Part shown: positions 2,565-20,714 of the stretch, piece by piece
How the letters are laid out: each line of letters begins with the position of its first letter
Numbering within the stretch: position 1 is the first letter of the stretch
Source of the DNA: Bacteroidota bacterium
Lineage (GTDB): Bacteria > Bacteroidota > Bacteroidia > Palsa-965
Assembly (NCBI GenBank): GCA_020402865.1
Contig: JADBYT010000019.1
Coordinates: 68,622 to 132,621, forward strand
Direction: 5' to 3'
Length of the DNA stretch: 64,000 nt
Translations under genes and position numbers: made by a program
The notes under the pieces: model-generated
What the model was told of the DNA's origin: nothing
The model's database searches: none
Seen by the model: only the letters and a program-made list of their open reading frames with translations

Positions 2565-3863
2565 CTATATTTTACTTAAAGGGGCAAATAAAGTACTCAG
2601 ACTTGAAAAATTTATTGCTTTTGATAATGTTACGACATATTGTGGCATTGGAGATTTCAATGTATTCGTAATTTCAGCTTGAATTGTAATGCCAGTAGAT
2701 GCTTCAGTAATCCATGCTCTGCCAGAAAAGAAATAATCATTAGTGGACTTGTATGTTTGATTGTTAATTTTACTTGATTCTGGAGTATAAATTGTAGTCC
2801 AACCGGCAGCAAAATAGATAGATACTGTTATGTTTTTGTTTTGATGATTAATATACAAACCAAGCCCCTTGTTGAATTTAAACTGATTAGATTTAGAGTT
2901 AAAACTTCTTGGGTAATTTAATATTTGCGGAAATTGTGAGGATACTGTTCTTGTTTGCGAATACGCAGAGTCGCCAATAAGATATTCTGTGTTTTTTGCA
3001 ATTCTTTGCCAGATAAATTCTGCTGATGGCGAGAAATATAGTTGAACTAAGTTAGAAGAAGAACTCAAGGATTTTATCTTAAATTTTTTGTGATTAATGT
3101 TTATCAGTGGTGAAAAATATGCACCAATATTTTCTGATGAAAATTTAGTGATGGCATCTGTTTGCTCATAAGAAAAAACCGATGTAGTGTCATTTATTTT
3201 TACAGCTTGATAAGGACGAATTACGTCTTTGAGCGTATCAACTGATGTAATATTTCTATTTCCATATAAGTTTAAAAAGAAGCCACTTTTAAAACCATTT
3301 TCATGGGAGTTAGGGACAAAAATATTTGTAGCAAAAAATAAATTTTTCGCTTGTATCCCATCTACCAGATCAAAATTTGTTCCTACATACGCCAAGTAGT
3401 TATATTGATTTATGGACTCACTTTTTTTTGTTGTGATAGATGTCATTCTATCTTTTGATAGATTAAGAGAAGAGATGTTTTTTTTGTTCTTGAATACTAC
3501 TAAATCTATTAAAAGTGTTCTTTGCTTGTCAGGAATACTGTCAGGAAAAATTGTTACAAGAAAAAGTATGGTGTCCCCGTTGTTTTTTGAAGTAAGTGTT
3601 TGTTTGTTGTGAAGAATTTCATAGTCTGTTGCAGGCAGAGAACTATTATTGATATTAGCTACGATGTCAACTTCTAGTGTATCTCCAATTGGAATACTGT
3701 CAATATAGTATTTGCAGATTACTTCGGTCGATTTGAGTGGGGCTTTAGTGATCGCTATCTCCTTATTAATCATCGATATCATAAATTTAGAGTCAGATTG
3801 TGCAGATGAGTTAATTGATAGAAAAACACCAGCAGCAATTAGGAGTTTTGTCAGTAGTTTCAT
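2565..3863 (-). CDS. hypothetical secreted/outer-membrane protein, compositionally atypical (AT-rich)
   Basis: 432-aa ORF with an N-terminal signal peptide (MKLLTKLLIAAGVFLSINSSAQ). Its GC is far below the neighbouring genes; the protein is Ser/Asn/Thr-rich with no recognisable catalytic motif. Confidence 0.6.
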   Translation of the reverse strand: MKLLTKLLIAAGVFLSINSSAQSDSKFMISMINKEIAITKAPLKSTEVICKYYIDSIPIGDTLEVDIVANINNSSLPATDYEILHNKQTLTSKNNGDTILFLVTIFPDSIPDKQRTLLIDLVVFKNKKNISSLNLSKDRMTSITTKKSESINQYNYLAYVGTNFDLVDGIQAKNLFFATNIFVPNSHENGFKSGFFLNLYGNRNITSVDTLKDVIRPYQAVKINDTTSVFSYEQTDAITKFSSENIGAYFSPLININHKKFKIKSLSSSSNLVQLYFSPSAEFIWQRIAKNTEYLIGDSAYSQTRTVSSQFPQILNYPRSFNSKSNQFKFNKGLGLYINHQNKNITVSIYFAAGWTTIYTPESSKINNQTYKSTNDYFFSGRAWITEASTGITIQAEITNTLKSPMPQYVVTLSKAINFSSLSTLFAPLSKI

Positions 3864-7957: not shown

Positions 7958-9508
<1,551 letters not shown>

Positions 9509-9529: not shown

Positions 9530-9850
9530 TGCTAAATGTATAATGCAGCCGGACTTTGTCCGGCTGTTTTTTTTGGGGTGTGTGTAATAATGCAGCCGGC
9601 TGTTTTTTTTGGGGGGAATGTTTGGAGTGGTTTTTTGTGTGTTGTAATGCAGCCGGGTGTTTTTTTTGGGGTTAGGCTGTTTTTTTTGGGGGGGAAGTGT
9701 TTGGAGTGGTTTTGTGGTGTTGTAATGCAATTGGGTGTTTTTTGGGGTTCGGCTGTTTTTGGGGTTGGAGTGTTTGGTGTGGTTTTGTGGTGTAGTAATT
9801 CAGCCGGGTGTTTTTTTGGGGGAGTGATGTAATTCTTTAAGTGGGGTGTT
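9530..9850. repeat. degenerate tandem array (4-5 units, ~58-76 bp) of terminator-like GC-stem/T-run units
   Basis: Reiterated units gtaatgcagccgg(c/g)tgttttttttgggg...gtttggagtggttttgtgtgtt at about 9540, 9588, 9646, 9722 and 9797. ORFs 9536..9832(+) and 9532..9900(-) are artefacts of the repeat. Confidence 0.7.
9546..9574 (+). terminator. Rho-independent terminator of guaB
   Basis: Perfect hairpin cagccgga-ctttg-tccggctg followed by T8, 38 nt after the guaB stop. Confidence 0.7.
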
Positions 9851-10048
9851 TGGGGACGCGTATTTTGGGTAGTTGTCACCGGGATATAGGTTTTACGCAT
9901 AATGCGTATATTAAATAGTTGATAATGTAATGTGTTTATAAATAATGAGTTAATGTATTTTGTAGTTAGTTGTGTTTTTGCGGGGTAATTGCGTATATTT
10001 AGGAGTTGCCTGCAACCCTAACAGATCCTAATAGCAAAGACAGAATTT

Positions 10049-11284
10049 ATGTTTGGATATAGAAATACAATTAAGGCTTTCTATGAAATAGACAGCTACA
10101 CTTACAGACAAGAAAAATCAAATAGCATTGTAAGTGAGATAACAAATAAAGGCAAAGAATACATTTTGGGGGTTGATGAAAATGAATTTATAGAGTATTT
10201 AATTGAAAAATATAGTATTGAACCATTAACGGTTGACAGGGAAAATCCAAGTATCAACGAACCAACTGTTTCAAAAGAATGGGTAGAAGACAGAATGTGG
10301 AGAGAAAAATATCAAACTGATGTTTATACTTTTACAATTAGTTACAAATTTTCAGGTTCGTCTGAATTATTTAAGGTTAGACCTGACACTTGGACAATGA
10401 CTACAACTGAAATTTCAATAAATGAACAAAACTCAACAGTATCGTTTAGTTTTAAACTTTATAGAAAAGACCCAGGAGAATTTAATAATGCTAAAAGAGA
10501 TTTTGAAAACAGAGCCTTTGCAAATCTTCAAAATGTAAATAACTTAGTTAGTAGTTGGAATAATTCAATTAAAGGACTTGCAACTTCAACATTTCAAGAA
10601 CACAAAAGAAAATTTCAGCAAGAGAATGATTTTTTTGCTGCAATCAATGTAAAAGTAAATACAAATACTTCATCAGTATTTACTGCACCAACAATAAAGA
10701 AAAAAGTTATACCACAACCAACAGTAAGTCCAAAAAAAGAATTTTCATCAGAGCCAATGATGAGCAAAGAAATGTATGATGACATCTTAAAAGTGATCTA
10801 CGATTCTGGAAAGAATATGGAGAAGAAACCAACTTTATATCAAAACAAAGACGAAGAGGGTTTAAGAGACCAATTTTTGTTCGTATTAGAAACAAGATAT
10901 GATGGAACTACTGCAAGTGGTGAAACATTTAATAGAAGTGGTAAAACAGATATACTTTTGAAATACGCTAATGATGGAAGTAATTTATTTGTAGCAGAAT
11001 GTAAGTTTTGGCACGGAATAAACGAATTTCAAAAAGCAATTTCACAACTATTTGACAGATACTTAACTTGGAGAGACTCAAAAACAGCCTTGATAATGTT
11101 TGTGAAAAATAAAGACTTTTCAAATGTAATTGAGACAGTAAAAAAAGAAATTAACGAACATCCTTACTTTTCTAAATTAGTCGGACATCGTGGTGAGACT
11201 TCTTTTAGTTACTTGTTTCATTTACCACAAGACAATCAAAAACCAGTACAATTAGAAATAATGCTTTTTCATTATGACAAATAA
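10049..11284 (+). CDS. hypothetical protein with an unknown N-terminal domain and a C-terminal PD-(D/E)xK-like nuclease motif; candidate defence effector
   Basis: 411-aa ORF in the AT-rich island. Its C-terminal region (FVLETR ... GKTDILLKYANDGSNLFVAECKFWHG) matches the E...D...ExK spacing of the restriction-endonuclease-like fold. Confidence 0.7.
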   Translation: MFGYRNTIKAFYEIDSYTYRQEKSNSIVSEITNKGKEYILGVDENEFIEYLIEKYSIEPLTVDRENPSINEPTVSKEWVEDRMWREKYQTDVYTFTISYKFSGSSELFKVRPDTWTMTTTEISINEQNSTVSFSFKLYRKDPGEFNNAKRDFENRAFANLQNVNNLVSSWNNSIKGLATSTFQEHKRKFQQENDFFAAINVKVNTNTSSVFTAPTIKKKVIPQPTVSPKKEFSSEPMMSKEMYDDILKVIYDSGKNMEKKPTLYQNKDEEGLRDQFLFVLETRYDGTTASGETFNRSGKTDILLKYANDGSNLFVAECKFWHGINEFQKAISQLFDRYLTWRDSKTALIMFVKNKDFSNVIETVKKEINEHPYFSKLVGHRGETSFSYLFHLPQDNQKPVQLEIMLFHYDK

Positions 11285-11488
11285 ATAGGGCAGCAGGCAA
11301 CATCGGTTTGGCAATATGGCGGCTGAAGTGCTTCTATGAAACATTTGTGCAAGGTTCAACAGCATTAATTCTATTGAACTTTATTGCTAAAAATCCGCCA
11401 CATCGCCAAGCCGTTTCCCGTTAGCAACAATTATATGACAAACCATGATATCAGTAAAATTGGTTTAAGCCCAAAAAAATGCAACAAA

Positions 11489-14158
11489 ATGAAAGAGGAA
11501 ATATATATTTCATATGCATGGATTAAATCCCCTACAGGCAATAAGGGGCACTCAACAATTGTTAACTCTATTGAGAAAAAATTGAAAGGTCATTTCAGCG
11601 TTAAAATTGATAAAAAAGATTTAAAGTACAAGGGAAACATAAAGGAATTTGAACAACGACTGGGACGAAATGGAAAAATTGTTATTGTCATTAGTGATAA
11701 GTTTCTTAAGTCAAAACATTGCATGCACGAAGTGCAATGTATAGTTGAGAAAGGCAATGTATATGAACGGATATTTCCAGTTGTGTTGGATGATGCTGAC
11801 ATTTATAACTCAAAAGGGATTCTTAAGTACGCTAAGTATTGGGAGAAGGAAAAGGAAAAATTAGAAAAGGAGTTGAAAAAAACTAAATCGCAGGCCAATC
11901 TTATTCCAGTACAAAACGACATCAATTTATTTTCTAAGTACCGTGAAATTATTGCTGGTTTTATTGCCATACTCAACAATATGAATACGCTAACTCCAGA
12001 AATTCATGAAGGGGCAAAATTTGAACAATTAATTGAAGCACTGTATGGAAAAAATCCACGACCTGACCATAAGCAGGAAAAGGATTACGCCAAGCGAATC
12101 TCAGAGACCAAAAAACTATTTGATAGTGCAATAAAGATTATAGAAAAGGAAATCAAAGAGAGAAAAATTAAGGCTGAGGAAATTCTTGGAAAAATAAGGC
12201 ACTTTCAAAATCAATGCACCCAACAAACATTTCAAATTGCTGTAATGGCAATTTTAAAATCGGGGAAATCCACCTTTTTAAATTCGTTACTCGGCAATGA
12301 GTTTTTGCCCGTTTCGAATGTTGCGGCAACTTCTGTCCCCGTTAGGATTAATCATTCAAGACATAAAGACGGGTATCTTACTTTTGGGAAAAGCAAAATT
12401 GATGGTGTAGAAAAGATTAGGAAGCAAATCGAATTGACCAATGAAGAAAAGAGAGATAAGGGAATGCAAGAGGTTCAATTTAATTTGTTTGCTTCTTTCA
12501 GGGCACTTGAGGATAAGGAAATGACTGATATTAAGTTTGAAATATTAGACACACCTGGCTTTGGTGAAGCACTTACTGAAATTACAATTGGAAAAACAAT
12601 TGACGAATCCAATTTGGAGCTTATTGATAAAATCAGCGCAATAATCTATTTGCTGGATTACACCAAATTGAAAACAACAGACGAGGATAAGGTGTTTGCA
12701 AAGTTAACTGAGATGCGAAGTGACATTCTGGATAAAATATCAGACAGGTTGTTTTTTATAATTAACAAAATTGATGAGGAAAACAGGAATAGTTTGCCAC
12801 CAGATAAAGTAGTTGATTATGTATTTGACATCGTTAAAACGAAAATGCCGAATGTTTTAAAGCAGCACATTTTTACAATATCCGCTAACCGTGCATTATT
12901 ATCTAGATTAATTCTTTTTGAGAATGCGACCAGTGAAGCGAAAAAGGACTTTGGTAGAATGGCCTTTGGATTTAAAGCAAACCAAAAGGATGAATCGGAA
13001 TACAAAGAAGTAGCAAGAGAAATATTAGCCGCCAGTAACATTCTTGAAGTTGAAAGCAGAATTCTGAATCACATTTTCGATAATCGAAGTAGGATATTTG
13101 TCGAAGGTCTGCAGGACAGCTTGAAACATTTAATGAAGGAATTCAAGAATAAATTTATTATCACTGCTGAAGGAGTTCTTAGCAGAACAATTGAAGAAAT
13201 TACTGACCTTGAATCAAAAATTGAGGCAGCAAAAAAAAAACAACAAAGTATCCAGGACGAAGCGGATAAATTTGAAACGGAAATCAAGGAATGGAATGAA
13301 ATAGAATTTCGAAACTTTGAAAAAAGCATCACAGATCAAATTGACTCAGCTTTCAATATTGAAAAGGTTGAAGAAAAGCAATCGTTTTGGGGTAGAATGA
13401 TGCCAAATTGGGTAAAGAGAGTTGGAAATAAATTGCGCGAGGTACAAGACTCCGTTGATTCCAGTTCGAAATATGATGTTGAGGAATCAATTCGTGCGCT
13501 TAACAAGGAAATTAATGAGGAGTTAATTAATTCATTCGGAATATTCAGACGGGAATTAGAGAATAAATTAGCCTCAAAGCAGAAAGCACTTTTTGAATCG
13601 CTGAAGCAAACGATAAATACATTAGCAAAAGAGTTCGAGAGCACATTAAAAAAAGGACTTAAAGTGGAATTTGAACAAACAGAGGTTCGCTTAGACGAGC
13701 CAGATTTTGACAGAACCCTAATAAAGGCAGATGAGCTCATTGATAGATTTGTACAAAGCGACTGGAAAGGAGTTCGTGTTGCAAAAAAAGAAAAGGTTTA
13801 CAACGAAAGAAAGAATTGTTATCTGGGGGGATACGACACTTTTACTACTTATGAAACTCAATACTTTGAGGAGAATAGAATAAGCAAGACCTCCTTAGAA
13901 TTGTTTTGGAAAAAAGTAATTGATGACAGGCATCAAAATGCGAAGGGAGTGACGAATAAGTTACTTGAAAACAGTATAAAAGCTCAGATTAAGAACGCAA
14001 GGAAAAGTTTCGACACATACGTGGGAGATTACCTTTTAACTATCCAAGAACAAAAGGCTCGATTGACGAATAGCGACAAATCGGAAATTGCAAATCAGAT
14101 AGCACACTTAAGACAATTAAATGAGACGGTATCGAGTATTATTCAAGATTTGAAATAG
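11489..14158 (+). CDS. TIR domain + dynamin-like GTPase + coiled-coil fusion protein; candidate defence sensor/effector
   Basis: The ORF runs 11384..14158, and the likely ATG is 11489 (MKEEIYISYAW). The N-terminal segment has a TIR signature (IYISYAW...VIVISDKFLKSKHCMHEV, containing the conserved Glu). A P-loop GTPase follows with G1 AILKSGKSTFLNSLLG, G3 ILDTPGFGE and G4 INKIDEE, a dynamin_N-like pattern. The remainder is a long heptad-rich, K/E-rich tail. Confidence 0.8.
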   Translation: MKEEIYISYAWIKSPTGNKGHSTIVNSIEKKLKGHFSVKIDKKDLKYKGNIKEFEQRLGRNGKIVIVISDKFLKSKHCMHEVQCIVEKGNVYERIFPVVLDDADIYNSKGILKYAKYWEKEKEKLEKELKKTKSQANLIPVQNDINLFSKYREIIAGFIAILNNMNTLTPEIHEGAKFEQLIEALYGKNPRPDHKQEKDYAKRISETKKLFDSAIKIIEKEIKERKIKAEEILGKIRHFQNQCTQQTFQIAVMAILKSGKSTFLNSLLGNEFLPVSNVAATSVPVRINHSRHKDGYLTFGKSKIDGVEKIRKQIELTNEEKRDKGMQEVQFNLFASFRALEDKEMTDIKFEILDTPGFGEALTEITIGKTIDESNLELIDKISAIIYLLDYTKLKTTDEDKVFAKLTEMRSDILDKISDRLFFIINKIDEENRNSLPPDKVVDYVFDIVKTKMPNVLKQHIFTISANRALLSRLILFENATSEAKKDFGRMAFGFKANQKDESEYKEVAREILAASNILEVESRILNHIFDNRSRIFVEGLQDSLKHLMKEFKNKFIITAEGVLSRTIEEITDLESKIEAAKKKQQSIQDEADKFETEIKEWNEIEFRNFEKSITDQIDSAFNIEKVEEKQSFWGRMMPNWVKRVGNKLREVQDSVDSSSKYDVEESIRALNKEINEELINSFGIFRRELENKLASKQKALFESLKQTINTLAKEFESTLKKGLKVEFEQTEVRLDEPDFDRTLIKADELIDRFVQSDWKGVRVAKKEKVYNERKNCYLGGYDTFTTYETQYFEENRISKTSLELFWKKVIDDRHQNAKGVTNKLLENSIKAQIKNARKSFDTYVGDYLLTIQEQKARLTNSDKSEIANQIAHLRQLNETVSSIIQDLK

Positions 14159-14388
14159 CTATTCAGTAAAATAGTGAAGTTTAGTAAACTTTGGGAAAAT
14201 TATAAAACAACTATTGCTAACAGGCGTTTGGCTCAATGGTGGGTACAGTGGTTAAATGAAGCTTTTGCTTCTTTCTAAGTTTCTGCTGCTTTGACTGTGA
14301 AGTGCTTCGAAATACTGCACGAACGCCAAACGGCAAAACCTTACTACTAATTCTAAATCATATCACATCGACAACAAATAGAAAGAAA

Positions 14389-15021
14389 ATGATCGAACCT
14401 GAAATACAATATAAAGTACCAAATTACTGCCCGACTTGTAATTCGATAGTTGAGACTGGAATTCTTTTCAGTTATGCTTTGAATATTATATACACAGACG
14501 AATTAGAAAACCAAGGGACAGCCGTAATATTAGGAAAGTGCTTGAATTGCAACAGTCCGTTTTTATCACAAGAAGATTTTCAAAATATTGAAGAGCATTC
14601 TTGGGTAAATGACAAATTTCAACTTTACCCATTGACAGACAACTTCGCATTAAAAAACGCACCTGATATTGTTATTAATCCATACAAAGAAGCCCAGAAA
14701 TGTTTTAGGGCTCAAGCATATGAAGCTTGTGTAATAATGTGCCGAAAAGGAATTGAAGCGATATGCACTGACAAAGGCGAGACAAAGGGCAACCTCGCAG
14801 ACAAATTAAAAAAACTAAAAGACAACCATATTTTAGAAGAAACATTTTATAACTGGTCAAACGAATTGCGACTTATTGGAAATGACGGAGCCCACTCACA
14901 CGACAAAATAATTAACAAGCAAGATGCGAGAGACGCCATTGACTTTTTTGACGCTTTGATAACATATTTATATCATTTGGTTGATCAATACAAAAAATTA
15001 AAAACTCGTAGAACTAAGTAA
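14389..15021 (+). CDS. Zn-ribbon + DUF4145-like domain protein
   Basis: The ORF runs 14302..15021, and the likely start is MIEPEIQY at 14389. It has a CxxC...CxNC zinc ribbon (CPTCNS...CLNCNS). The C-terminal block AQAYEACVIMCRKGIEAIC...LRLIGNDGAHSHD...ARDAIDFFDALITYLY resembles DUF4145, a domain found on type I restriction endonuclease (HsdR) C-termini and abortive-infection/defence proteins. Confidence 0.65.
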   Translation: MIEPEIQYKVPNYCPTCNSIVETGILFSYALNIIYTDELENQGTAVILGKCLNCNSPFLSQEDFQNIEEHSWVNDKFQLYPLTDNFALKNAPDIVINPYKEAQKCFRAQAYEACVIMCRKGIEAICTDKGETKGNLADKLKKLKDNHILEETFYNWSNELRLIGNDGAHSHDKIINKQDARDAIDFFDALITYLYHLVDQYKKLKTRRTK

Positions 15022-15062
15022 TGACAAGTGGAGTAAAGAATATTATTTATTTCAGTGTCTAT

Positions 15063-15869
15063 CTATAGAGTATCAAATTTATTAGCATAGTAATGAGCTT
15101 TTTCACGGTCTTTAGGTTCGCTATTCCCATAGAAGTTACTATGAGAAAATAGTGTTTGTGTAAGGTAATTTTTAAGCCAAAGATATTTTGCATAGTTTTG
15201 AGTTCCACTGTATAATTCATTTTTAATATTAGTATATATATATTCTAAATCATCGATATTTTTAAGGGCTATTCGTTCTGCAAATGAAATAAAAATTGCA
15301 TCATTATTTATGATCGTAAAGTCGGTGGGATATTGATATATTAAACGATTTGGTCTATCAACTGCGCCGGGGTAAATGCTATCATAGTTATATTGTAATA
15401 TAAAATATTCTTTGGTTTGGTGGGAAGGATTACTATCATATGATGCAATGATTCTTGGGTCAATAATTACTCTAGGATATTTTTCCTGTGATTCTAAAAT
15501 ATAAGCATCACTAAGTCCATTTCCTACAACAATATTTAGTTCAGTATCAAAATGAATGTCACCTAAAGTTACTGCTCCTCTAATCCAAATATTTTCCCTT
15601 GCACAGTCGCATTGTATTGTTTGAACTGCAGTTAATAGCTCTCTTAATCCTTCTATGCTTAACTCACTGGCAAGAATAACTGAATCACTCACTAATTGAC
15701 CGCGAACATTTTCTTTACTCGATTTTACTTTTTTTAGAGTTTTAGTAATTACTTCGAAATACTTATCAAACCTAAGGTCTGTATCTTTTTTGCGTAACAT
15801 TTCTTTAAATCCTAAGACATCTAAAAATGCAACATATTGCTTCTCTTTTAGATTTTTTGACATTGACAT
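15063..15869 (-). CDS. class III nucleotidyl cyclase-like (palm-domain) protein; possible signal-generating cyclase
   Basis: 268-aa ORF convergent with the DUF4145 gene. YVAFLDVLGFKEML (first metal Asp), QLVSDSVILASE (second Asp), IWIRGAVTLGDIHFD and VVGNGLSDAYILES resemble the conserved blocks of class III adenylyl/guanylyl (and Pycsar pyrimidine) cyclases. Confidence 0.6.
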   Translation of the reverse strand: MSMSKNLKEKQYVAFLDVLGFKEMLRKKDTDLRFDKYFEVITKTLKKVKSSKENVRGQLVSDSVILASELSIEGLRELLTAVQTIQCDCARENIWIRGAVTLGDIHFDTELNIVVGNGLSDAYILESQEKYPRVIIDPRIIASYDSNPSHQTKEYFILQYNYDSIYPGAVDRPNRLIYQYPTDFTIINNDAIFISFAERIALKNIDDLEYIYTNIKNELYSGTQNYAKYLWLKNYLTQTLFSHSNFYGNSEPKDREKAHYYANKFDTL

Positions 15870-16062
15870 TGTTTTCTGTTTTTGTATGATTGCGTCTTTC
15901 TGGTGTTTATTTATATATTGTAAATATATTAAGTGTTTTATTTAGATCAAGATTTGTGCTAATATTTATATTAAAGGAGTAATAAATTGTCATTTTTAGG
16001 CAGATCTCTTTCTGATCTAGCTTCATGGTGAATTTAATGTATATGACACTAACATACCCCCT

Positions 16063-16103
16063 CAAAAAAAACACCTGCCGGCATTGCTGCACAGCAGGTG
16101 TTT
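16063..16103 (-). terminator. intrinsic terminator of the 1530-aa cargo gene
   Basis: On the minus strand, hairpin aacacctgc...gcaggtgtt followed by T8 (plus strand: ctcaaaaaaaacacctgccggcattgctgcacagcaggtgtt), 20 nt past the stop. Confidence 0.55.
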
Positions 16104-16121: not shown

Positions 16122-19100
16122 TTACTCGTGAATGAGTTTGGCGGAGTAGCTGAACCCGCTGCGGCGGTCTTCAATTTTAAGCAGATACACACCCGCTGCA
16201 CAGCCCGTAAGCTGCGTGTTTATTTGCATGCGGCCGGCATCGGTTTCGCGCATTTCCTGATGCACCACGCGGCCGGCAAGGTCAGTTACCGTAATAGAAA
16301 TGGTATTGCTTTGCGGCGATACGAAGTCGAAAATGAGTGTGCCGTTGGTGGGATTGGGATGCAGATTGTCCACAAACACGCTGCCGGGCTGGTAGTTGAT
16401 GAGCACCACCGGCGAGTAGGTGTAGGTGCCGTTAAAATCAACCTGCTTTAAGCGGTAGTAGTTTTCGCCCTGTTTCGGGAAAGCGTCAACCTGCACATAA
16501 TGCAGCGGCTGTGTGCTGTTTCCGGCCCCGTCAATGGTAGCAATAGGCTGGAAGAACTGCCCGTCGGTTGAGCGTTCGAGCACGAAGTAATCGTTGTTCT
16601 GCTCGGTGGCAGTAGTCCAGCGCAGCACGTTGTGCTCGTTTTCGCTGGTGCCGGTAAAGGAAATAAGTTCAACCGGCAGCGGCGTTTGCGACTGCGCCAC
16701 GGCAAATACCGAGAAGCCGTTTAAGCCCGTGCGGCTGGTTTGCGCAGCGGTGCTGGTGGCTACACACGTGCCCTGCAAACCCCAGGCGCTGGCTATGTTG
16801 GCGGCTTTCATTACCGTCCACCCCGAAGCGCCCGCCGTGTTGCTGTAACTGGTGCTGAACAGCGTGACATCATAATTGCCCGAAGTGGCATTGGCCGAGG
16901 CATTGATGGTCCAGTAACCGTTGTTGAGCGCCTGCAGCGCATTGTAGGTGGCGTTGGGGCATTCGCTGGCGGCAGGGCCGTTGGGCAACACCGCCCACGG
17001 ATCAAACCTTGCAATGAGCTGCGGAATGGTGGTGGTGGTGGTAAACGTAATTTGTGCGCGCTGGTAGCCCTGCAGCACCGTGCCCACGGGCAGGTTGTAA
17101 GCCACCGCCGCGCCCGAAAGCCAGCGGCGCAGGTTGCCGGCCACAAAACTGTTTGTATTGCCCGCCGTGCAGGCTGCCGAAGCGGTGTTGGTTACCTGCA
17201 CTTCGTTGGCGGCAGTAACAATGCGGCCGTTAGTAAGTGTAAGTGTGCCCGATGTGCCCAGCACCATATTGGTGGCCAGCGTTACACCCGTGCCGGTGTG
17301 GTTCATAAGCACATTGTTAAGCGTGAGTGTGCTTGTGCCTTGATTATACGTTTGCGCGGCGGTGCCGTTAAACTCAAGCGTGCCGGTGGTGCCGGTGTTG
17401 GTGTAGGTGCTGCTGCCGTTGCTGTTGGTGAAGTTGCCGGCTACCCGCACGTAGTTGCCCGTGGTGTTGAATACACTGGTGTTGTTGGTGGTGGTAAAAT
17501 TGCCGCCAATATCAATGGCTGCATTCAATATTACCTGTCCGCCGGTTTTGGTAATGGTGAGGTTGCCCACTTTATCGGCTCCCACAAACGAGCCGGTAAT
17601 GTTTTGCACCACCGAACCGTTGTTGAACACAATGGTAGAAAGCGGACTGCACACGAGTGAACCGAAGTTGGTAAAATCGCCGCAGATGTTGAGTGTGGCG
17701 CCGGCCTGCAGGGTAAGTGTGGCGCCGGGATTGATGGTGAGGTTTTTTACGTTGTATGTACCTGCGGTGAGAATGGGTTGTGTAACCGACGAGGGCGAAA
17801 TTACCGCATCAATGCCGCAGGTGGGCGAGTTGCAGCCGCCCCAGTTGCCGGTGGGCACCCACGCACTGTTGGTGCCGCCGGTCCACGTAACCGAGTTGCC
17901 CGCAGCGGTGTAGTTGATGGGCGATGTGGCCGAGAAGTTGAGCGTAAAGCCGGAGGTGGAGTTGGAGAAGTTACTTACGCAAAGCAAATACACATCGCCA
18001 TTGTTCACGGCCAGCTGCTGCTCGTAGGCAAAGTTGAAGCCGGGATAGGCTGCAGGTGCGGTATTGGTTACGGTGCTGTTGAGGCCGGTAACCCCCAATC
18101 CGCTGTAGTTGCAGCGTATGGGCACTGCACCGGCGGCAATACCGGCACAGTTGGTAGCGCCAGCGCCGGCAATTTTCCACACGGCAAAATCGTAGTCGGT
18201 GGCGGCGGTGCTGGGTGCGCCGGGCCAGTCGTTGGGCACAATGTCGAAGGTAAGTGTGCCGTTGGCATTAATCGGAATGGAATACCATGCCGAGCCGCGT
18301 TCGCCGGAGGCAAGGCAGATGGATGCGCCTGTGAAATCGCAGATATTGCCGTAGGCCTGATAACCGGGGTTACCAATGGCAATGGTGGCGTTGCACACGG
18401 GGTTGGGCGCCGAGCAATCCTGCCCCACGGCAGCCGGAAAACCTACTGCGCCGTTTACCGCCATAATATCAAACGTGCCGGTGAGCGAGTTGGCGCCGTC
18501 CACACGAATGAAGTAGGTGGCGCCTGCGGTTAAGCCGGTGGCGGTTATTTCGGAATTGCTGTACGACGAAGTACCGCACACAGGCGCATCGTCGTTGCAG
18601 GCCACCTGGGTAAGCGAGGCGCAGGTGCCGCTGTAAAGTGCAATCTGCGTATTGGTGAGCGAGCCGATGCCGGTGCGGATGCGCAGCTGCCCCGAAGCCG
18701 GACACACCACTGAATACCACACGGAGTTAATGGTGCCGGTGGTCCAGCAGCTGGCTGCGGCGGGTTCAGACACACTGCCGGAGCAGGTGTTGTCGCCACT
18801 CAGGTTTACGTTGAGCGGAAGCGATTGTGCGTTGCAGGGTAAGTCGTTGGCGGGGCCGCTGCCGTTGTTTACAATGTTTATATCGTAGGTGGCGGAGCTG
18901 GGCGATGCCCAGGTATCTACCACAATGTAATAGGTTCCGGCCGCAGGCACGGTAACGGAAGCGGAAAGCGGGTTGCTGCCGCCGGCCGAGCCTACGCAGG
19001 TGGTGCCCACGTTGCCCGGGCAGCCATTATACACCTGAAAACCGATGTTGGAGGTGCTGGCGTTGCTCAGGGTAATGCCTAAGCAGGCCGCACCGCTCAG

Positions 19101-20711
19101 GGTAACCGCATATACACGGTCTTCGCCCGATTCGTAGAGCGTGGCGCAGGAGCCGGTGCTGGCATTGGTGTAGTCGTTGCCGTAGCACGCGGTGGTGTGC
19201 CCGGTAGCGGTGTAGGGAAGTGTAACGGTTGGTGCATTGCTGCACAGGGTGCCTGCCGCAGCGGCTGAAGGTGCTGAGATGCTGATGTCGTAAGGATTAC
19301 AAAACGGCGACGACTCAGAATCAACCACCACGTAATAGGTAACGCCCGATGTAACATTGAAGCACAAACTCTTGTTGCCGGTTGAACTTTGCGCATTGGC
19401 CACACAGGCTGCGGTGGAGGTAATGCAGGGCGGCACGTTTATCGGACAACCATCATACACCATTACGGCCGTGAATGAGCCTGATGATGTGAGATTGAGC
19501 GTGACCTGCCCGGTGGATGCAGCGGTGAAATAAAACACTTCATCTTCGCCGGTGTAGTAAAAACCGGAACCGCACACCGACGATACATTGGTGCTGAGAA
19601 TATTGTTGATTTTACCGCAGGTGGTACGGCCGGTAGAGGTGTAGGGCAGCGAAATACTCACGGCACCTGTACCCAAAGCCGCCACACAGTTGGTGGCAGG
19701 CGCAGAAATAGTGAGGTTGTTGTAGGCATAACACGACGAACCATCCAGCACAAGATAATAGGTAGTGCCGGAAGTTACACAGGTGGAAAGCGTGGCATCA
19801 CTGCCGCTGGTGGAGGCTACACAGTTGCTGCTGCTGCAAATGTTGGGGCATCCGTCGTACAGATACATACCGGCATCAAACGTAGAAGAGTTAAGACCAA
19901 TATTGATTAAACCGCTGACCGTTGGTGTAAATGCCCACACCTGATCTTCGCTGCTCATGTAAAACGAGTTACCGCAAACTACGGTATTGCTTCCATCCAC
20001 ATTGTTTACCGAACCGCAGGTGGTTCCGGCGCCCGAGGCATAGGGAAGCGAAGCCACGGTGGTAAAACCGGTGCCCATTAAACTGGCGCAACTAGCTGCC
20101 GTGGCGGATGATACAAGCGAGATATTATCTACAGCCGATGGCGGGTTTGTACCAATAGAACCATCGCAGTTGAAACTGAATACCAGACGCTGCGTAGTGC
20201 CGGCAATACCGGTGCAGGGCAGCGAAATGGAGGCGCTTTGCCAGGTGGCTTGTGAATTGTAGGTGGTGCCAAGCTGCCCGGTGGTGAGTTCGGTTCCTGC
20301 GGCGGGCGTGGTGGTGGTGGGCACCAGAAACACTTCCATATAATCGCAGCATGATTCGCCTACGCCGCGCCAGTTGAAACTCAGCGTGATGTTCGGCTGG
20401 CCTGCCGGAAAGGTAATGTCGCGGTAAAAGTGTTGTGTGCGCGCCTGATTTATGTTATACACATTGCCGGTGCCGCCGTTGTTTGAAATATAGGCCGATC
20501 GTGTGCCGCTGTTGGCTACTGCCGTGCCTACATACCATTTGTTTGCAGCACCGCCGCCGTTTTGAGCTTCCTGCCAGTTATTGGCCGCAAATGTATTTCC
20601 GCTTTCAAAGCCGCCGTCGCCGGCCGGATTAATGAGTGTGGTTTGTGCCTGAATACCGGTAAACGCTGCACATGCAATAATTGAACAGAGTAGTTTTTTT
20701 GTCATACGCAT
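16122..20711 (-). CDS. giant secreted multi-domain protein (N-terminal lectin/MAM-like domain, repeated beta-sandwich and beta-helix modules) with a T9SS type A C-terminal sorting domain
   Basis: About 1530 aa. The ORF opens with TTG at 20714, and the ATG/signal peptide MTKKLLCSIIACAAFTGIQAQ follows. The C-terminus (LHPNPTNGTLIFDFVSPQ...GVYLLKIEDRRSGFSYSAKLIHE) is Por-secretion-tail-like. It is a paralogue of 21250..25851. Confidence 0.85.
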   Translation of the reverse strand: MRMTKKLLCSIIACAAFTGIQAQTTLINPAGDGGFESGNTFAANNWQEAQNGGGAANKWYVGTAVANSGTRSAYISNNGGTGNVYNINQARTQHFYRDITFPAGQPNITLSFNWRGVGESCCDYMEVFLVPTTTTPAAGTELTTGQLGTTYNSQATWQSASISLPCTGIAGTTQRLVFSFNCDGSIGTNPPSAVDNISLVSSATAASCASLMGTGFTTVASLPYASGAGTTCGSVNNVDGSNTVVCGNSFYMSSEDQVWAFTPTVSGLINIGLNSSTFDAGMYLYDGCPNICSSSNCVASTSGSDATLSTCVTSGTTYYLVLDGSSCYAYNNLTISAPATNCVAALGTGAVSISLPYTSTGRTTCGKINNILSTNVSSVCGSGFYYTGEDEVFYFTAASTGQVTLNLTSSGSFTAVMVYDGCPINVPPCITSTAACVANAQSSTGNKSLCFNVTSGVTYYVVVDSESSPFCNPYDISISAPSAAAAGTLCSNAPTVTLPYTATGHTTACYGNDYTNASTGSCATLYESGEDRVYAVTLSGAACLGITLSNASTSNIGFQVYNGCPGNVGTTCVGSAGGSNPLSASVTVPAAGTYYIVVDTWASPSSATYDINIVNNGSGPANDLPCNAQSLPLNVNLSGDNTCSGSVSEPAAASCWTTGTINSVWYSVVCPASGQLRIRTGIGSLTNTQIALYSGTCASLTQVACNDDAPVCGTSSYSNSEITATGLTAGATYFIRVDGANSLTGTFDIMAVNGAVGFPAAVGQDCSAPNPVCNATIAIGNPGYQAYGNICDFTGASICLASGERGSAWYSIPINANGTLTFDIVPNDWPGAPSTAATDYDFAVWKIAGAGATNCAGIAAGAVPIRCNYSGLGVTGLNSTVTNTAPAAYPGFNFAYEQQLAVNNGDVYLLCVSNFSNSTSGFTLNFSATSPINYTAAGNSVTWTGGTNSAWVPTGNWGGCNSPTCGIDAVISPSSVTQPILTAGTYNVKNLTINPGATLTLQAGATLNICGDFTNFGSLVCSPLSTIVFNNGSVVQNITGSFVGADKVGNLTITKTGGQVILNAAIDIGGNFTTTNNTSVFNTTGNYVRVAGNFTNSNGSSTYTNTGTTGTLEFNGTAAQTYNQGTSTLTLNNVLMNHTGTGVTLATNMVLGTSGTLTLTNGRIVTAANEVQVTNTASAACTAGNTNSFVAGNLRRWLSGAAVAYNLPVGTVLQGYQRAQITFTTTTTIPQLIARFDPWAVLPNGPAASECPNATYNALQALNNGYWTINASANATSGNYDVTLFSTSYSNTAGASGWTVMKAANIASAWGLQGTCVATSTAAQTSRTGLNGFSVFAVAQSQTPLPVELISFTGTSENEHNVLRWTTATEQNNDYFVLERSTDGQFFQPIATIDGAGNSTQPLHYVQVDAFPKQGENYYRLKQVDFNGTYTYSPVVLINYQPGSVFVDNLHPNPTNGTLIFDFVSPQSNTISITVTDLAGRVVHQEMRETDAGRMQINTQLTGCAAGVYLLKIEDRRSGFSYSAKLIHE

Positions 20712-20714
20712 CAA

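What the first reader, a model, noticed from the sequence alone, without database searches (positions are those of the whole stretch)
15063..15869. Class-III nucleotidyl cyclase-like palm domain protein encoded convergently inside the island
The blocks AFLDVLGF, LVSDSVILAS, IRGAVTLGDI and VVGNGLSDAYILES follow the order and spacing of the metal-binding Asp strands and the substrate-specifying region of adenylyl/guanylyl and Pycsar pyrimidine cyclases. The protein is only 268 aa with an uncharacterised C-terminal half. It could be the signal generator of a Pycsar-like module whose effector is not of the canonical CNB-TIR/TM type, or a GGDEF-like enzyme.
Basis: partly seen in the sequence, partly recalled or inferred. 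Interest (0 to 1): 0.6.

Follow-up and report, generated by a model that had tools for sequence, protein, structure and literature searches.

The report
Stand-alone divergent cyclase-fold enzyme gene
This 268-aa gene belongs to a very large, unannotated family whose front half is predicted to fold like adenylyl/guanylyl cyclases and keeps their metal-binding residues but lacks other catalytic residues, and it sits alone among anti-phage genes with no signalling partner.

Summary
The ORF at 15063-15869 (-) encodes 268 aa with all four quoted blocks. The blocks hold the most conserved residues of a family with 12,434 cluster representatives and no Pfam, NCBIfam or PADLOC match.

The fold reading is supported. 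An AlphaFold2 model (pLDDT 91.6) has only class III adenylyl/guanylyl cyclases among its top 50 PDB matches. Profile alignments to real cyclases put D16, D61 and R96 on the two metal aspartates and a conserved cyclase arginine. These are 98-100% conserved in 319 homologues.

It is not an orthodox cyclase. The positions of the transition-state Asn and Arg and of the base-specifying pair are hydrophobic or variable. The C-terminal half is a helical bundle with no known structural match and an invariant K227/W230.

The Pycsar-like reading is not supported. No island gene recurs beside any family member in 88 loci. No family member lies beside four TIR-dynamin homologues. No cNMP-binding effector is present. 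GGDEF is not supported either.

Close relatives are solitary genes in changing defence-gene neighbourhoods. A distant subclade takes the place of the toxic Gop in gop-beta-cII-like operons.

Best reading: an autonomous NTP-using two-metal enzyme with a role in conflict with phages or mobile elements. Its product is unknown.

The parts
15063..15869 (-). Complete ORF, 268 aa (a second in-frame ATG lies two codons downstream; database twin P0001 is 266 aa)
   Evidence: P0001 is 100% identical, from a Bacteroidetes MAG, contig 224 kb
15459..15845 (-). N-terminal class III cyclase-like palm domain (residues about 8-136): beta-alpha-beta-beta-alpha-beta core, hairpin arm, helix and strand
   Evidence: AF2 pLDDT 91.6 with DSSP elements; Foldseek PDB and BFVD; hhalign to PF00211 proteins; hmmsearch to 1yk9
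15807..15830 (-). Motif 1, AFLDVLGF: strand 1 with putative metal-binding Asp D16 and the class III-type DxxGF signature
   Evidence: D16, G19 and F20 are 98% conserved, the rest gaps; aligned to the cyclase FTD/FADIVGF motif
15666..15695 (-). Motif 2, LVSDSVILAS: beta2-beta3 hairpin with putative second metal-binding Asp D61 (S60-D61-S62)
   Evidence: D61 100%, S60 99%; aligned to the cyclase IGDS/SGDSYM motif
15555..15584 (-). Motif 3, IRGAVTLGDI: strand 4 with R96-G97 and G102
   Evidence: R96 100%, G97 99%, G102 97%; aligned to the cyclase IRIGIHTG/LRVGLATG motif
15489..15530 (-). Motif 4, VVGNGLSDAYILES: counterpart of the cyclase WGDTVNxASRMES helix. G115, A121 and E125 are kept; the Asn position (S119) and the Arg position (I123) are not
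   Evidence: position 119 is I 52%, V 20%, S 8%; position 123 is L 45%, E 12%, K 11%; register
15066..15458 (-). C-terminal family-specific helical domain (residues 137-267)
   Evidence: Modelled alone at pLDDT 82; no significant PDB fold match, best E=3.9
15165..15212 (-). Conserved C-terminal helix motif Y219...K227-Y-L-W230-L-K-x-Y234
   Evidence: Y219, K227 and W230 are invariant in A1. K227 and W230 are 88% in 319 sequences, the rest almost all gaps
9900..16100 (.). Context only: low-GC island that also carries PDC-S54 (10049-11284), TIR-dynamin (11384-14158) and a DUF4145 gene (14302-15021). None of them is linked to the target across genomes

Best explanation
The gene encodes a solitary member of a very large, so far unannotated protein family. 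The family has two parts: a strongly diverged class III nucleotidyl-cyclase-fold palm domain and a family-specific C-terminal helical bundle.

Shown: the predicted fold; the in-register conservation of two Asp and one Arg at the cyclase motif positions; a conserved R132 opposite the cyclase's Lys; the absence of the class III transition-state Asn/Arg and of the base-specifying pair; the lack of any conserved partner gene in the close clade; and the recurrent location in horizontally acquired defence-gene neighbourhoods.

Inferred: it is an active, NTP-consuming two-metal nucleotidyltransferase. The C-terminal bundle (invariant K227, W230, Y219) may complete or gate the active site in place of the second cyclase subunit. 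I could not inspect model coordinates, so this is untested.

Also inferred: it acts as an autonomous, single-gene conflict module of the abortive-infection or toxin type, not as the signal generator of a two-gene signalling system.

The product could be a 3',5'-cNMP or, given the missing Asn/Arg, the product of an intermolecular nucleotidyl transfer. My rough split is: active NTP-using enzyme 0.7; role in phage or mobile-element conflict 0.6; classical cNMP cyclase 0.25.
For: Fold: AF2 model pLDDT 91.6, pTM 0.91. The top 50 of 85 significant Foldseek PDB hits are all class III adenylyl/guanylyl cyclases, with target-normalised TM-scores up to 0.63 and rmsd 3.7-4.3 A over about 145-160 columns. 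BFVD hits are guanylate cyclase and GGDEF domains, then RT palms.

Sequence: hhalign A2 vs A3 gives P=0.0049 over 142 columns covering the whole catalytic domain. The sole PDB hit of the A2 profile is the adenylate cyclase chain 1yk9_A, collinear over 7-153 vs 5-164.

Conservation: D16 98%, D61 100%, R96 100%, R132 93%; K227 and W230 are present almost wherever that column is aligned.

Solitary: among 29 close-clade loci no neighbour family within three genes recurs in more than 2 loci, and no shared small ORFs.

Defence context: neighbours include AbiEii, DUF4062, SIR2_2, MmeI-type and type I R-M, OLD/AAA_15, AIPR, HEPN-RES, GmrSD and SNF2-Mrr. 306 PADLOC models are matched by 139 neighbour proteins. 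The window island has low GC and a strong PDC-S54 hit.

Effector hint: in 11 Bacteroidota loci a distant family member precedes a beta gene (PF14350) and a convergent cII-like gene, the layout of P4 gop-beta-cII. It occupies the slot of Gop, which is unrelated and is the toxic component (PMC9122126).
Against: No biochemical or genetic data exist for any member that I could find.

Sequence-level similarity to cyclases is weak: A1 vs A3 E=0.1, 1yk9 E=0.98. The fold assignment therefore rests mainly on a predicted structure.

The canonical Asn/Arg pair needed for efficient cyclisation is missing, so cyclase activity is doubtful.

The defence-island association was not tested against a background expectation. 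Several neighbours are housekeeping genes.

The gop-beta-cII analogy comes from relatives only about 17-25% identical to the target.

Only 10 IMG/VR loci and one PHROG match suggest some phage carriage, so a counter-defence role is not excluded.
Confidence: 0.5

Rival explanations
1. One reading: the protein is the cyclic-nucleotide generator of a Pycsar/Pucsar-like two-gene system, and its effector is the neighbouring TIR-dynamin GTPase.
For: Cyclase-like fold. A TIR-containing protein lies 900 bp away in the same low-GC island. Pycsar and Pucsar systems do use TIR effectors (10.64898/2026.08.12.744502).
Against: No TIR-dynamin homologue lies near a family member in 88 loci. No family member lies near 4 TIR-dynamin homologues, 3 of them with downstream sequence. 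The genes are separated by a DUF4145 gene, and the target is on the opposite strand. The TIR-dynamin has no cNMP-binding domain at E<=1. There is no PADLOC or PF00211 hit for the target. Pycsar-family systems are defined by CNBD-TIR or 3TM effectors.
Confidence: 0.04
2. It is a GGDEF, Cas10 or mCpol-type enzyme that makes cyclic di- or oligonucleotides, like OptS of Panoptes.
For: Same palm superfamily. GGDEF domains appear among the weaker BFVD hits. mCpol is also a small defence-associated palm protein with an Asp pair, Asp6 and Asp57 (PMC12657218). The absence of the cyclase Asn/Arg fits intermolecular chemistry.
Against: All top 50 PDB hits are class III cyclases; none is GGDEF, Cas10 or OptS. 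The family carries the class III signatures DxxGF, RxGxxxG and GxxxxxAxxxE, not GG[DE][DE]F. No PF00990 hit in 74 members. No adjacent 2TM effector of the Panoptes kind. No PADLOC hit.
Confidence: 0.1
3. It is a nucleic-acid-directed nucleotidyltransferase or polymerase (Thg1-like or template-independent). The C-terminal helical bundle acts like a fingers domain that presents Lys and aromatic residues to the palm.
For: The S-D-S hairpin and the 260-aa palm-plus-helical-domain size resemble Thg1 (my recollection of Thg1 motifs; the Thg1 palm is unified with GGDEF and Cas10 in the paper cited). K227, W230 and Y234 lie on one helix. The cyclisation-specific Asn/Arg are missing.
Against: No Thg1 or polymerase chain appears in the top 50 PDB hits. 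There is no Pfam Thg1 hit. The C-terminal domain has no fold match to any fingers domain. The position of K227 relative to the active site could not be inspected.
Confidence: 0.12
4. It is a catalytically inactive pseudo-cyclase that serves as a nucleotide sensor, regulator or scaffold.
For: The transition-state Asn/Arg and the base-specifying residues are lost. Some relatives are fused to a C-terminal winged HTH, as in ligand-sensing regulators.
Against: D16, D61, R96 and G97 are almost completely invariant down to about 17% pairwise identity. That is what selection on catalysis would produce; selection on binding alone should be looser.
Confidence: 0.1
5. It is an ordinary physiological cAMP or cGMP cyclase with no role in conflict.
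For: Cyclase fold. Some neighbours are housekeeping genes.
Against: It has no regulatory domain and lacks the canonical catalytic and specificity residues. Its distribution across phyla is patchy and includes plasmids and an archaeal MAG. It sits in a low-GC island. Its neighbours vary and are rich in defence genes. No PF00211 hit.
Confidence: 0.04

Closest known systems
Class III nucleotidyl cyclases (Pfam PF00211; top structural and sequence hits include PDB entries 1wc1, 1ybt and 1yk9)
   Same: Predicted beta-alpha-beta-beta-alpha-beta palm with hairpin arm. Two Asp on strand 1 and the beta2-beta3 hairpin, about 45 residues apart. Arg-Gly on strand 4. The G...A...E helix. A basic residue (R132) where many cyclases have Lys.
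   Different: No PF00211 HMM match in 74 members. The transition-state Asn and Arg and the base-specifying Lys/Asp positions are hydrophobic or variable. The arm is about 5 residues shorter. The protein carries a unique 130-aa C-terminal helical bundle in place of the last beta-hairpin. There is no sensor domain.
Pycsar / Pucsar cyclases (PycC, PucC)
   Same: Small stand-alone proteins of the cyclase fold found in defence islands.
   Different: Those are recognisable cNMP cyclases and are always next to a CNBD-TIR or 3TM effector. This family has no such partner, no PADLOC model hit and a different active-site make-up.
gop-beta-cII anti-phage system of satellite phage P4
   Same: A distant subclade of the family (11 Bacteroidota loci) is followed by a beta homologue (PF14350, 2e-23) and a convergent cII homologue (PADLOC cll, 9e-14). 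This is the same order and orientation as in P4.
   Different: P4 Gop is an unrelated 133-aa protein with hydrophobic N-terminal segments. The window's gene belongs to the solitary clade and has no beta or cII neighbour.
mCpol / OptS of the Panoptes system
   Same: A minimal palm-domain nucleotide-synthesising protein used in phage defence, with two catalytic Asp (PMC12657218).
   Different: OptS is closest to the Cas10 and GGDEF palms, has no C-terminal helical domain and works with the adjacent effector OptE. This family is structurally closest to class III cyclases and is solitary.

Membership tests
Class III nucleotidyl cyclase (PF00211) | Palm fold of the cyclase homology domain | tested here: met
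   AF2 model pLDDT 91.6. The top 50 Foldseek PDB hits are all class III cyclases, E 1e-5 to 3e-4.
Class III nucleotidyl cyclase (PF00211) | Two metal-binding Asp, on strand 1 and on the beta2-beta3 hairpin | tested here: met
   D16 and D61 align to the cyclase Asp residues. They are 98% and 100% conserved.
Class III nucleotidyl cyclase (PF00211) | Phosphate-binding Arg on strand 4 (RxGxxxG) | tested here: met
   R96 100%, G97 99%, G102 97%. Aligned to the cyclase IRIGIHTG motif. The phosphate-binding role is from my knowledge of the mammalian enzymes.
Class III nucleotidyl cyclase (PF00211) | Transition-state Asn and Arg in the GDTVNxASRME helix | tested here: not met
   The aligned positions are S119 (family I/V/S) and I123 (family L/E/K/Q).
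Class III nucleotidyl cyclase (PF00211) | Base-specifying pair (Lys/Asp for ATP, Glu/Cys-type for GTP) | tested here: not met
   The aligned positions 57 (I/L/Q) and 112 (I/Q/L) are not conserved polar residues. The mapping is by motif register.
Class III nucleotidyl cyclase (PF00211) | Match to the family HMM above the gathering score | tested here: not met
   No PF00211 hit at E<=1 for the target or for any of 74 family members.
Class III nucleotidyl cyclase (PF00211) | Head-to-tail dimer with active sites at the interface; cNMP product | not testable with these tools
   No multimer prediction, no model coordinates and no biochemistry were available.
Pycsar / Pucsar | Adjacent effector with a cNMP-binding domain (CNBD-TIR) or a 3TM effector | tested here: not met
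   No cNMP-binding domain in the island proteins. No conserved neighbour in 29 close loci.
Pycsar / Pucsar | Cyclase recognisable as PycC or PucC | tested here: not met
   No PADLOC model matches at E<=1. That PADLOC v2 holds PycC models is my recollection.
Pycsar / Pucsar | Co-occurrence of the cyclase and the proposed TIR-GTPase effector across genomes | tested here: not met
   0 of 88 loci from the family side. 0 of 4 loci from the TIR-dynamin side.
GGDEF diguanylate cyclase (PF00990) | GG[DE][DE]F hairpin motif and an HMM match | tested here: not met
   The hairpin reads V-S-D-S-V. No PF00990 hit in 74 members. No GGDEF chain in the top 50 PDB hits.
mCpol / Panoptes | Cas10-like minimal palm next to the effector OptE | tested here: not met
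   No such neighbour. No Cas10 or OptS chain in the top 50 PDB hits. A direct OptS comparison was not possible.
gop-beta-cII | Adjacent beta (PF14350) and cII genes | tested here: not met
   Absent from the window island. Present only beside the distant Bacteroidota subclade.
Thg1-like 3'-5' nucleotidyltransferase | Match to the Thg1 or Thg1C families, or closest fold | tested here: inconclusive

The most novel reading that the evidence does not exclude
This is the first recognised member of a vast family (thousands of clusters across Bacteroidota, Proteobacteria, Firmicutes, Planctomycetota, Acidobacteriota and at least one archaeal MAG) of minimal cyclase-fold enzymes. They have rebuilt the class III active site with a private C-terminal helical domain. 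They act as self-contained anti-phage or abortive-infection effectors that make a non-canonical nucleotide product or drain NTPs. They are interchangeable with the toxic Gop module in gop-beta-cII systems.
Probability: 0.25. Interest if true: 0.78.

Novelty: new variant of a known kind. Interest (0 to 1): 0.55.

Why it matters
Known immune enzymes of the cyclase fold (Pycsar, Pucsar, STAND-fused cyclases) are recognisable by sequence and work with a dedicated effector.

This family is invisible to Pfam, NCBIfam and PADLOC, yet it has 12,434 cluster representatives. It keeps the metal and phosphate residues while discarding the cyclisation-specific ones, and it usually occurs alone.

If it is active, it would show either a new chemistry on the class III scaffold or a one-protein defence strategy based on consuming nucleotides. 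It would also put a name on thousands of hypothetical proteins in defence islands.

Its replacement of Gop in beta-cII operons offers a testable handle on that poorly understood system.

Tried and rejected
1. Pfam, NCBIfam and PADLOC scans of the target gave nothing. PHROGs gave only an unknown-function family, phrog_23933 at 3e-24.

2. Sequence searches of the PDB with the single protein and with the A1 profile gave only spurious hits.

4. A conserved partner gene for the close clade was rejected. A conserved small upstream or downstream ORF was rejected. The 61-aa ORF at 15907-16092 overlaps a boundary repeat and is probably spurious.

5. Linkage to the TIR-dynamin, PDC-S54 or DUF4145 genes was rejected from both sides.

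6. Homology of P4 Gop to the family was rejected.

7. Informative domain fusions in long variants: none, except a C-terminal wHTH in two Lachnospiraceae members.

8. tblastn against GenBank phages found nothing. Plasmid hits were distant and all annotated as hypothetical.

9. The C-terminal domain fold search found no match.

10. The promoter and terminator scan was no better than shuffles, and the window has no tRNA.

11. Six literature searches found no description of the family.

12. My first conservation table was mis-numbered because of hmmalign --trim. It was corrected.

Full report
OBSERVATION. The window holds an intact ORF at 15063..15869 on the minus strand, 268 aa with an ATG start. 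I checked the first three by hand against the DNA. Residue numbers below follow the 267-aa query that starts at ORF residue 2.

The gene converges on a DUF4145 gene (14302..15021, +) with a 41-bp gap. It lies in a sharp compositional island: GC is 0.29-0.35 between about 10.0 and 16.0 kb, against 0.52-0.60 on both sides. The island sits between guaB (8042..9508; IMPDH, 4e-163) and a 1530-aa gene with a type IX secretion sorting tail (16122..20714, -). It also carries a PADLOC PDC-S54 homologue (10049..11284, 2.6e-111) and a 924-aa TIR_2 + Dynamin_N protein (11384..14158).

THE FAMILY. The protein has no hit in Pfam, NCBIfam or PADLOC at E<=1. Its only hit is a PHROG of unknown function (phrog_23933, 3e-24).

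It is nevertheless far from an orphan. A word-indexed search found 193 homologues, all about 250-290 aa and all 'hypothetical'. An exhaustive profile search of 1.84 billion cluster representatives found 12,434 at E<=1e-3, 6,665 at 1e-10 and 300 at 1e-30.

A scan of one genome per species returned 80 loci. They come from Bacteroidota, Gamma-, Beta-, Alpha- and Epsilonproteobacteria, Bdellovibrionota, Spirochaetia, Chlorobi, Firmicutes, Planctomycetota, Acidobacteriota, Nitrospirota, Myxococcota and one archaeal MAG. There are distant copies on 50 plasmids and 10 IMG/VR contigs, and none in GenBank phages by tblastn. An identical protein (P0001) comes from a Bacteroidetes MAG contig of 224 kb.

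FOLD. An AlphaFold2 model built on a 63-sequence alignment is confident: pLDDT 91.6, pTM 0.91. Residues 9-135 form strand, helix, strand, strand, helix, strand, a short hairpin, a helix and a strand. The remainder is helical.

Foldseek against the PDB gave 85 hits at E<=1e-3. All top 50 are class III adenylyl or guanylyl cyclases, including CyaC, soluble guanylate cyclase, CyaB, bPAC/OaPAC, Rv1900c, Ma1120, mammalian AC and Cya2. E-values are 1e-5 to 3e-4, target-normalised TM-scores reach 0.63, and rmsd is 3.7-4.3 A over about 145-160 columns. The viral library gave guanylate cyclase domains, then GGDEF, then RT palms.

At the sequence level the signal is weak but convergent. A 74-sequence family alignment from the genome loci (A2) was compared with 26 genuine PF00211 proteins (A3). 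This gave hhalign P=0.0049 over 142 columns spanning the whole catalytic domain. The A2 profile's only hit among 177,635 PDB sequences is the adenylate cyclase chain 1yk9_A (E=0.98, collinear over 7-153 vs 5-164). The narrower A1 profile reached only E=0.1.

ACTIVE SITE. Both alignments give the same register.
- D16 falls on the Asp of the cyclase FTD/FADIVGF motif.
- D61 falls on the Asp of IGDS/SGDSYM.
- R96-G97...G102 falls on IRIGIHTG.
- G115...A121...E125 falls on WGDTVNxASRME.
- R132 falls on the Lys of GKVNIS.

From established knowledge of mammalian adenylyl cyclase, these cyclase positions are the two metal-binding Asp, the strand-4 phosphate-binding Arg and a phosphate-binding Lys. 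I applied that mapping by motif and did not compute it.

Across 319 family sequences, D16 is 98% conserved (the rest are gaps), D61 100%, R96 100%, G97 99% and R132 93%. D61, G19 and F20 stay invariant at 17-25% identity.

In contrast, the residue opposite the cyclase Asn (position 119) is I, V or S. The residue opposite the cyclase Arg (position 123) is L, E, K or Q. The positions opposite the base-specifying pair (57 and 112) are I/L/Q and I/Q/L.

The family still fails several defining features of PF00211 cyclases, and no member of A2 matches PF00211 or PF00990.

C-TERMINAL HALF. Residues 137-267, modelled alone (pLDDT 82), have no significant PDB fold match; the best E is 3.9, to generic helical bundles. 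Y219, K227 and W230 are invariant in the 63-sequence alignment. K227, W230 and Y234 lie on one long helix.

Whether this helix reaches the palm active site could not be checked, because model coordinates are not exposed. It is my inference that it replaces what the second subunit supplies in dimeric cyclases.

CONTEXT.
- In 29 close-clade loci (HMM E<1e-50), no neighbour family within three genes recurs in more than two loci. No small ORF within 600 bp is shared. The gene is therefore solitary, usually with its own 100-250 bp upstream spacer.
- Its neighbours change from genome to genome and are rich in defence genes: AbiEii and DUF4062; an MmeI-type enzyme and RhuM repeats; SIR2_2; DUF5343-HEPN_Swt1; OLD/AAA_15; AIPR, HEPN-RES, GmrSD, SNF2-Mrr and ABC-3C CTD10; type I HsdR; and an integrase-bearing element.
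- A batch PADLOC scan of 139 neighbour proteins matched 306 models at 1e-5. I did not compare this with a background.

THE PYCSAR-LIKE HYPOTHESIS. None of the window's island proteins has a homologue in any of the 88 loci then held.

From the other side, the TIR-dynamin protein has only about 22 full-length homologues. In four of their contexts neither family HMM finds a member (noise-level scores only), and PDC-S54 and DUF4145 do not recur. One of those four is a 94% identical copy.

The island contains no cNMP-binding domain. A 2026 preprint defines Pycsar and Pucsar systems by CNBD-TIR or 3TM effectors next to recognisable cyclases (10.64898/2026.08.12.744502). It does not describe this family. 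The island is best read as four independent cargo genes.

DISTANT SUBCLADES.
- Eleven Bacteroidota loci have [family member, about 286 aa][PF14350 Beta_protein][convergent cII-like gene]. This is the layout of P4 gop-beta-cII. That system is an anti-phage system in which Gop is toxic without beta (PMC9122126; 10.1101/2023.04.06.535777). P4 Gop is an unrelated small protein with hydrophobic N-terminal segments. The family member therefore fills the toxin slot.
- Six loci pair the family with a ParA/AAA_31-like ATPase.
- Two Lachnospiraceae members carry a C-terminal wHTH and sit inside type I R-M operons.
- This modular reuse is typical of conflict-system components. These relatives are only about 17-25% identical to the target.

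VERDICT. The fold interpretation is supported. The Pycsar-like pairing and the GGDEF alternative are not.

The best explanation (confidence 0.5) is a solitary, probably active, NTP-using two-metal enzyme of a new and highly diverged branch of the class III cyclase fold, acting in phage or mobile-element conflict. Its product is unknown. The missing Asn/Arg make a classical cNMP cyclase less likely than some other nucleotidyl transfer.

Novelty: a new variant of a known kind. Interest: 0.55.

Noticed in passing
window 9543-9822 and 16052-16093: The island's left edge carries about 6 tandem, degenerate copies of a 36-73 nt element: a GCAGCCGG...CCGGCTG hairpin followed by a T-run and a G-run. 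A single inverted copy (73-79% complementary) sits at the right edge. With up to 3 mismatches the element occurs nowhere else in the window. It may be a duplicated terminator or an insertion-site scar. The ORFs 9532-9900 (-) and 15907-16092 (-) overlap these repeats and are probably spurious.
   Followed up: partly
window 11384-14158 (+): A 924-aa TIR_2 + Dynamin_N protein has no significant PADLOC match (best E 0.02). It has only about 22 full-length homologues (44-67% identical) plus a 94% identical copy split into two ORFs. It sits next to R-M genes, PLD nucleases or a SMODS/S_4TM pair, with no conserved partner. It may be an undescribed single-gene TIR-GTPase defence protein.
   Followed up: partly
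window 10049-11284 (+): A strong match to the PADLOC candidate single-gene system PDC-S54 (2.6e-111), with a weak vWA-TerF-like hit at the C-terminus.
   Followed up: no
window 14302-15021 (+): A DUF4145 protein (5.6e-19) that also matches phrog_1305 'DNA binding protein' (3e-31). It is convergent with the target and does not co-occur with it elsewhere.
   Followed up: partly
window 2565-3863 (-): A second low-GC patch (GC 0.31-0.42 at 2-4 kb) holds a 432-aa ORF with no Pfam match. It lies between M16 peptidase genes and a CHU_C/T9SS protein gene. It may be another small horizontally acquired insertion.
   Followed up: partly
L080 7956-10648 (Kaistella palustris DSM 21579); also L041, L043, L065, L066, L073, L079, L081, L083, L085, L087: A gop-beta-cII-like operon in which a cyclase-fold protein replaces Gop. 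It often lies directly after type I R-M hsdR and hsdS genes.
   Followed up: partly
L033, L034, L051, L053, L060, L063 (for example L051 6934-8690): Another distant subclade is always preceded by a ParA/AAA_31-like ATPase of about 355 aa, which hits PADLOC PDC-M28B weakly.
   Followed up: no
L045 7824-9044 and L046 644-1762 (Lachnospiraceae MAGs): Family members fused to a C-terminal winged HTH (HTH_24, 8.7e-8; similar to the SoFic, CasR and Csa3 C-termini). They are embedded between type I R-M hsdS and hsdR genes.
   Followed up: no
L105 6060-7980: One TIR-dynamin homologue lies directly downstream of a SMODS-like gene and an S_4TM gene, which looks like a CBASS-type pair.
   Followed up: no
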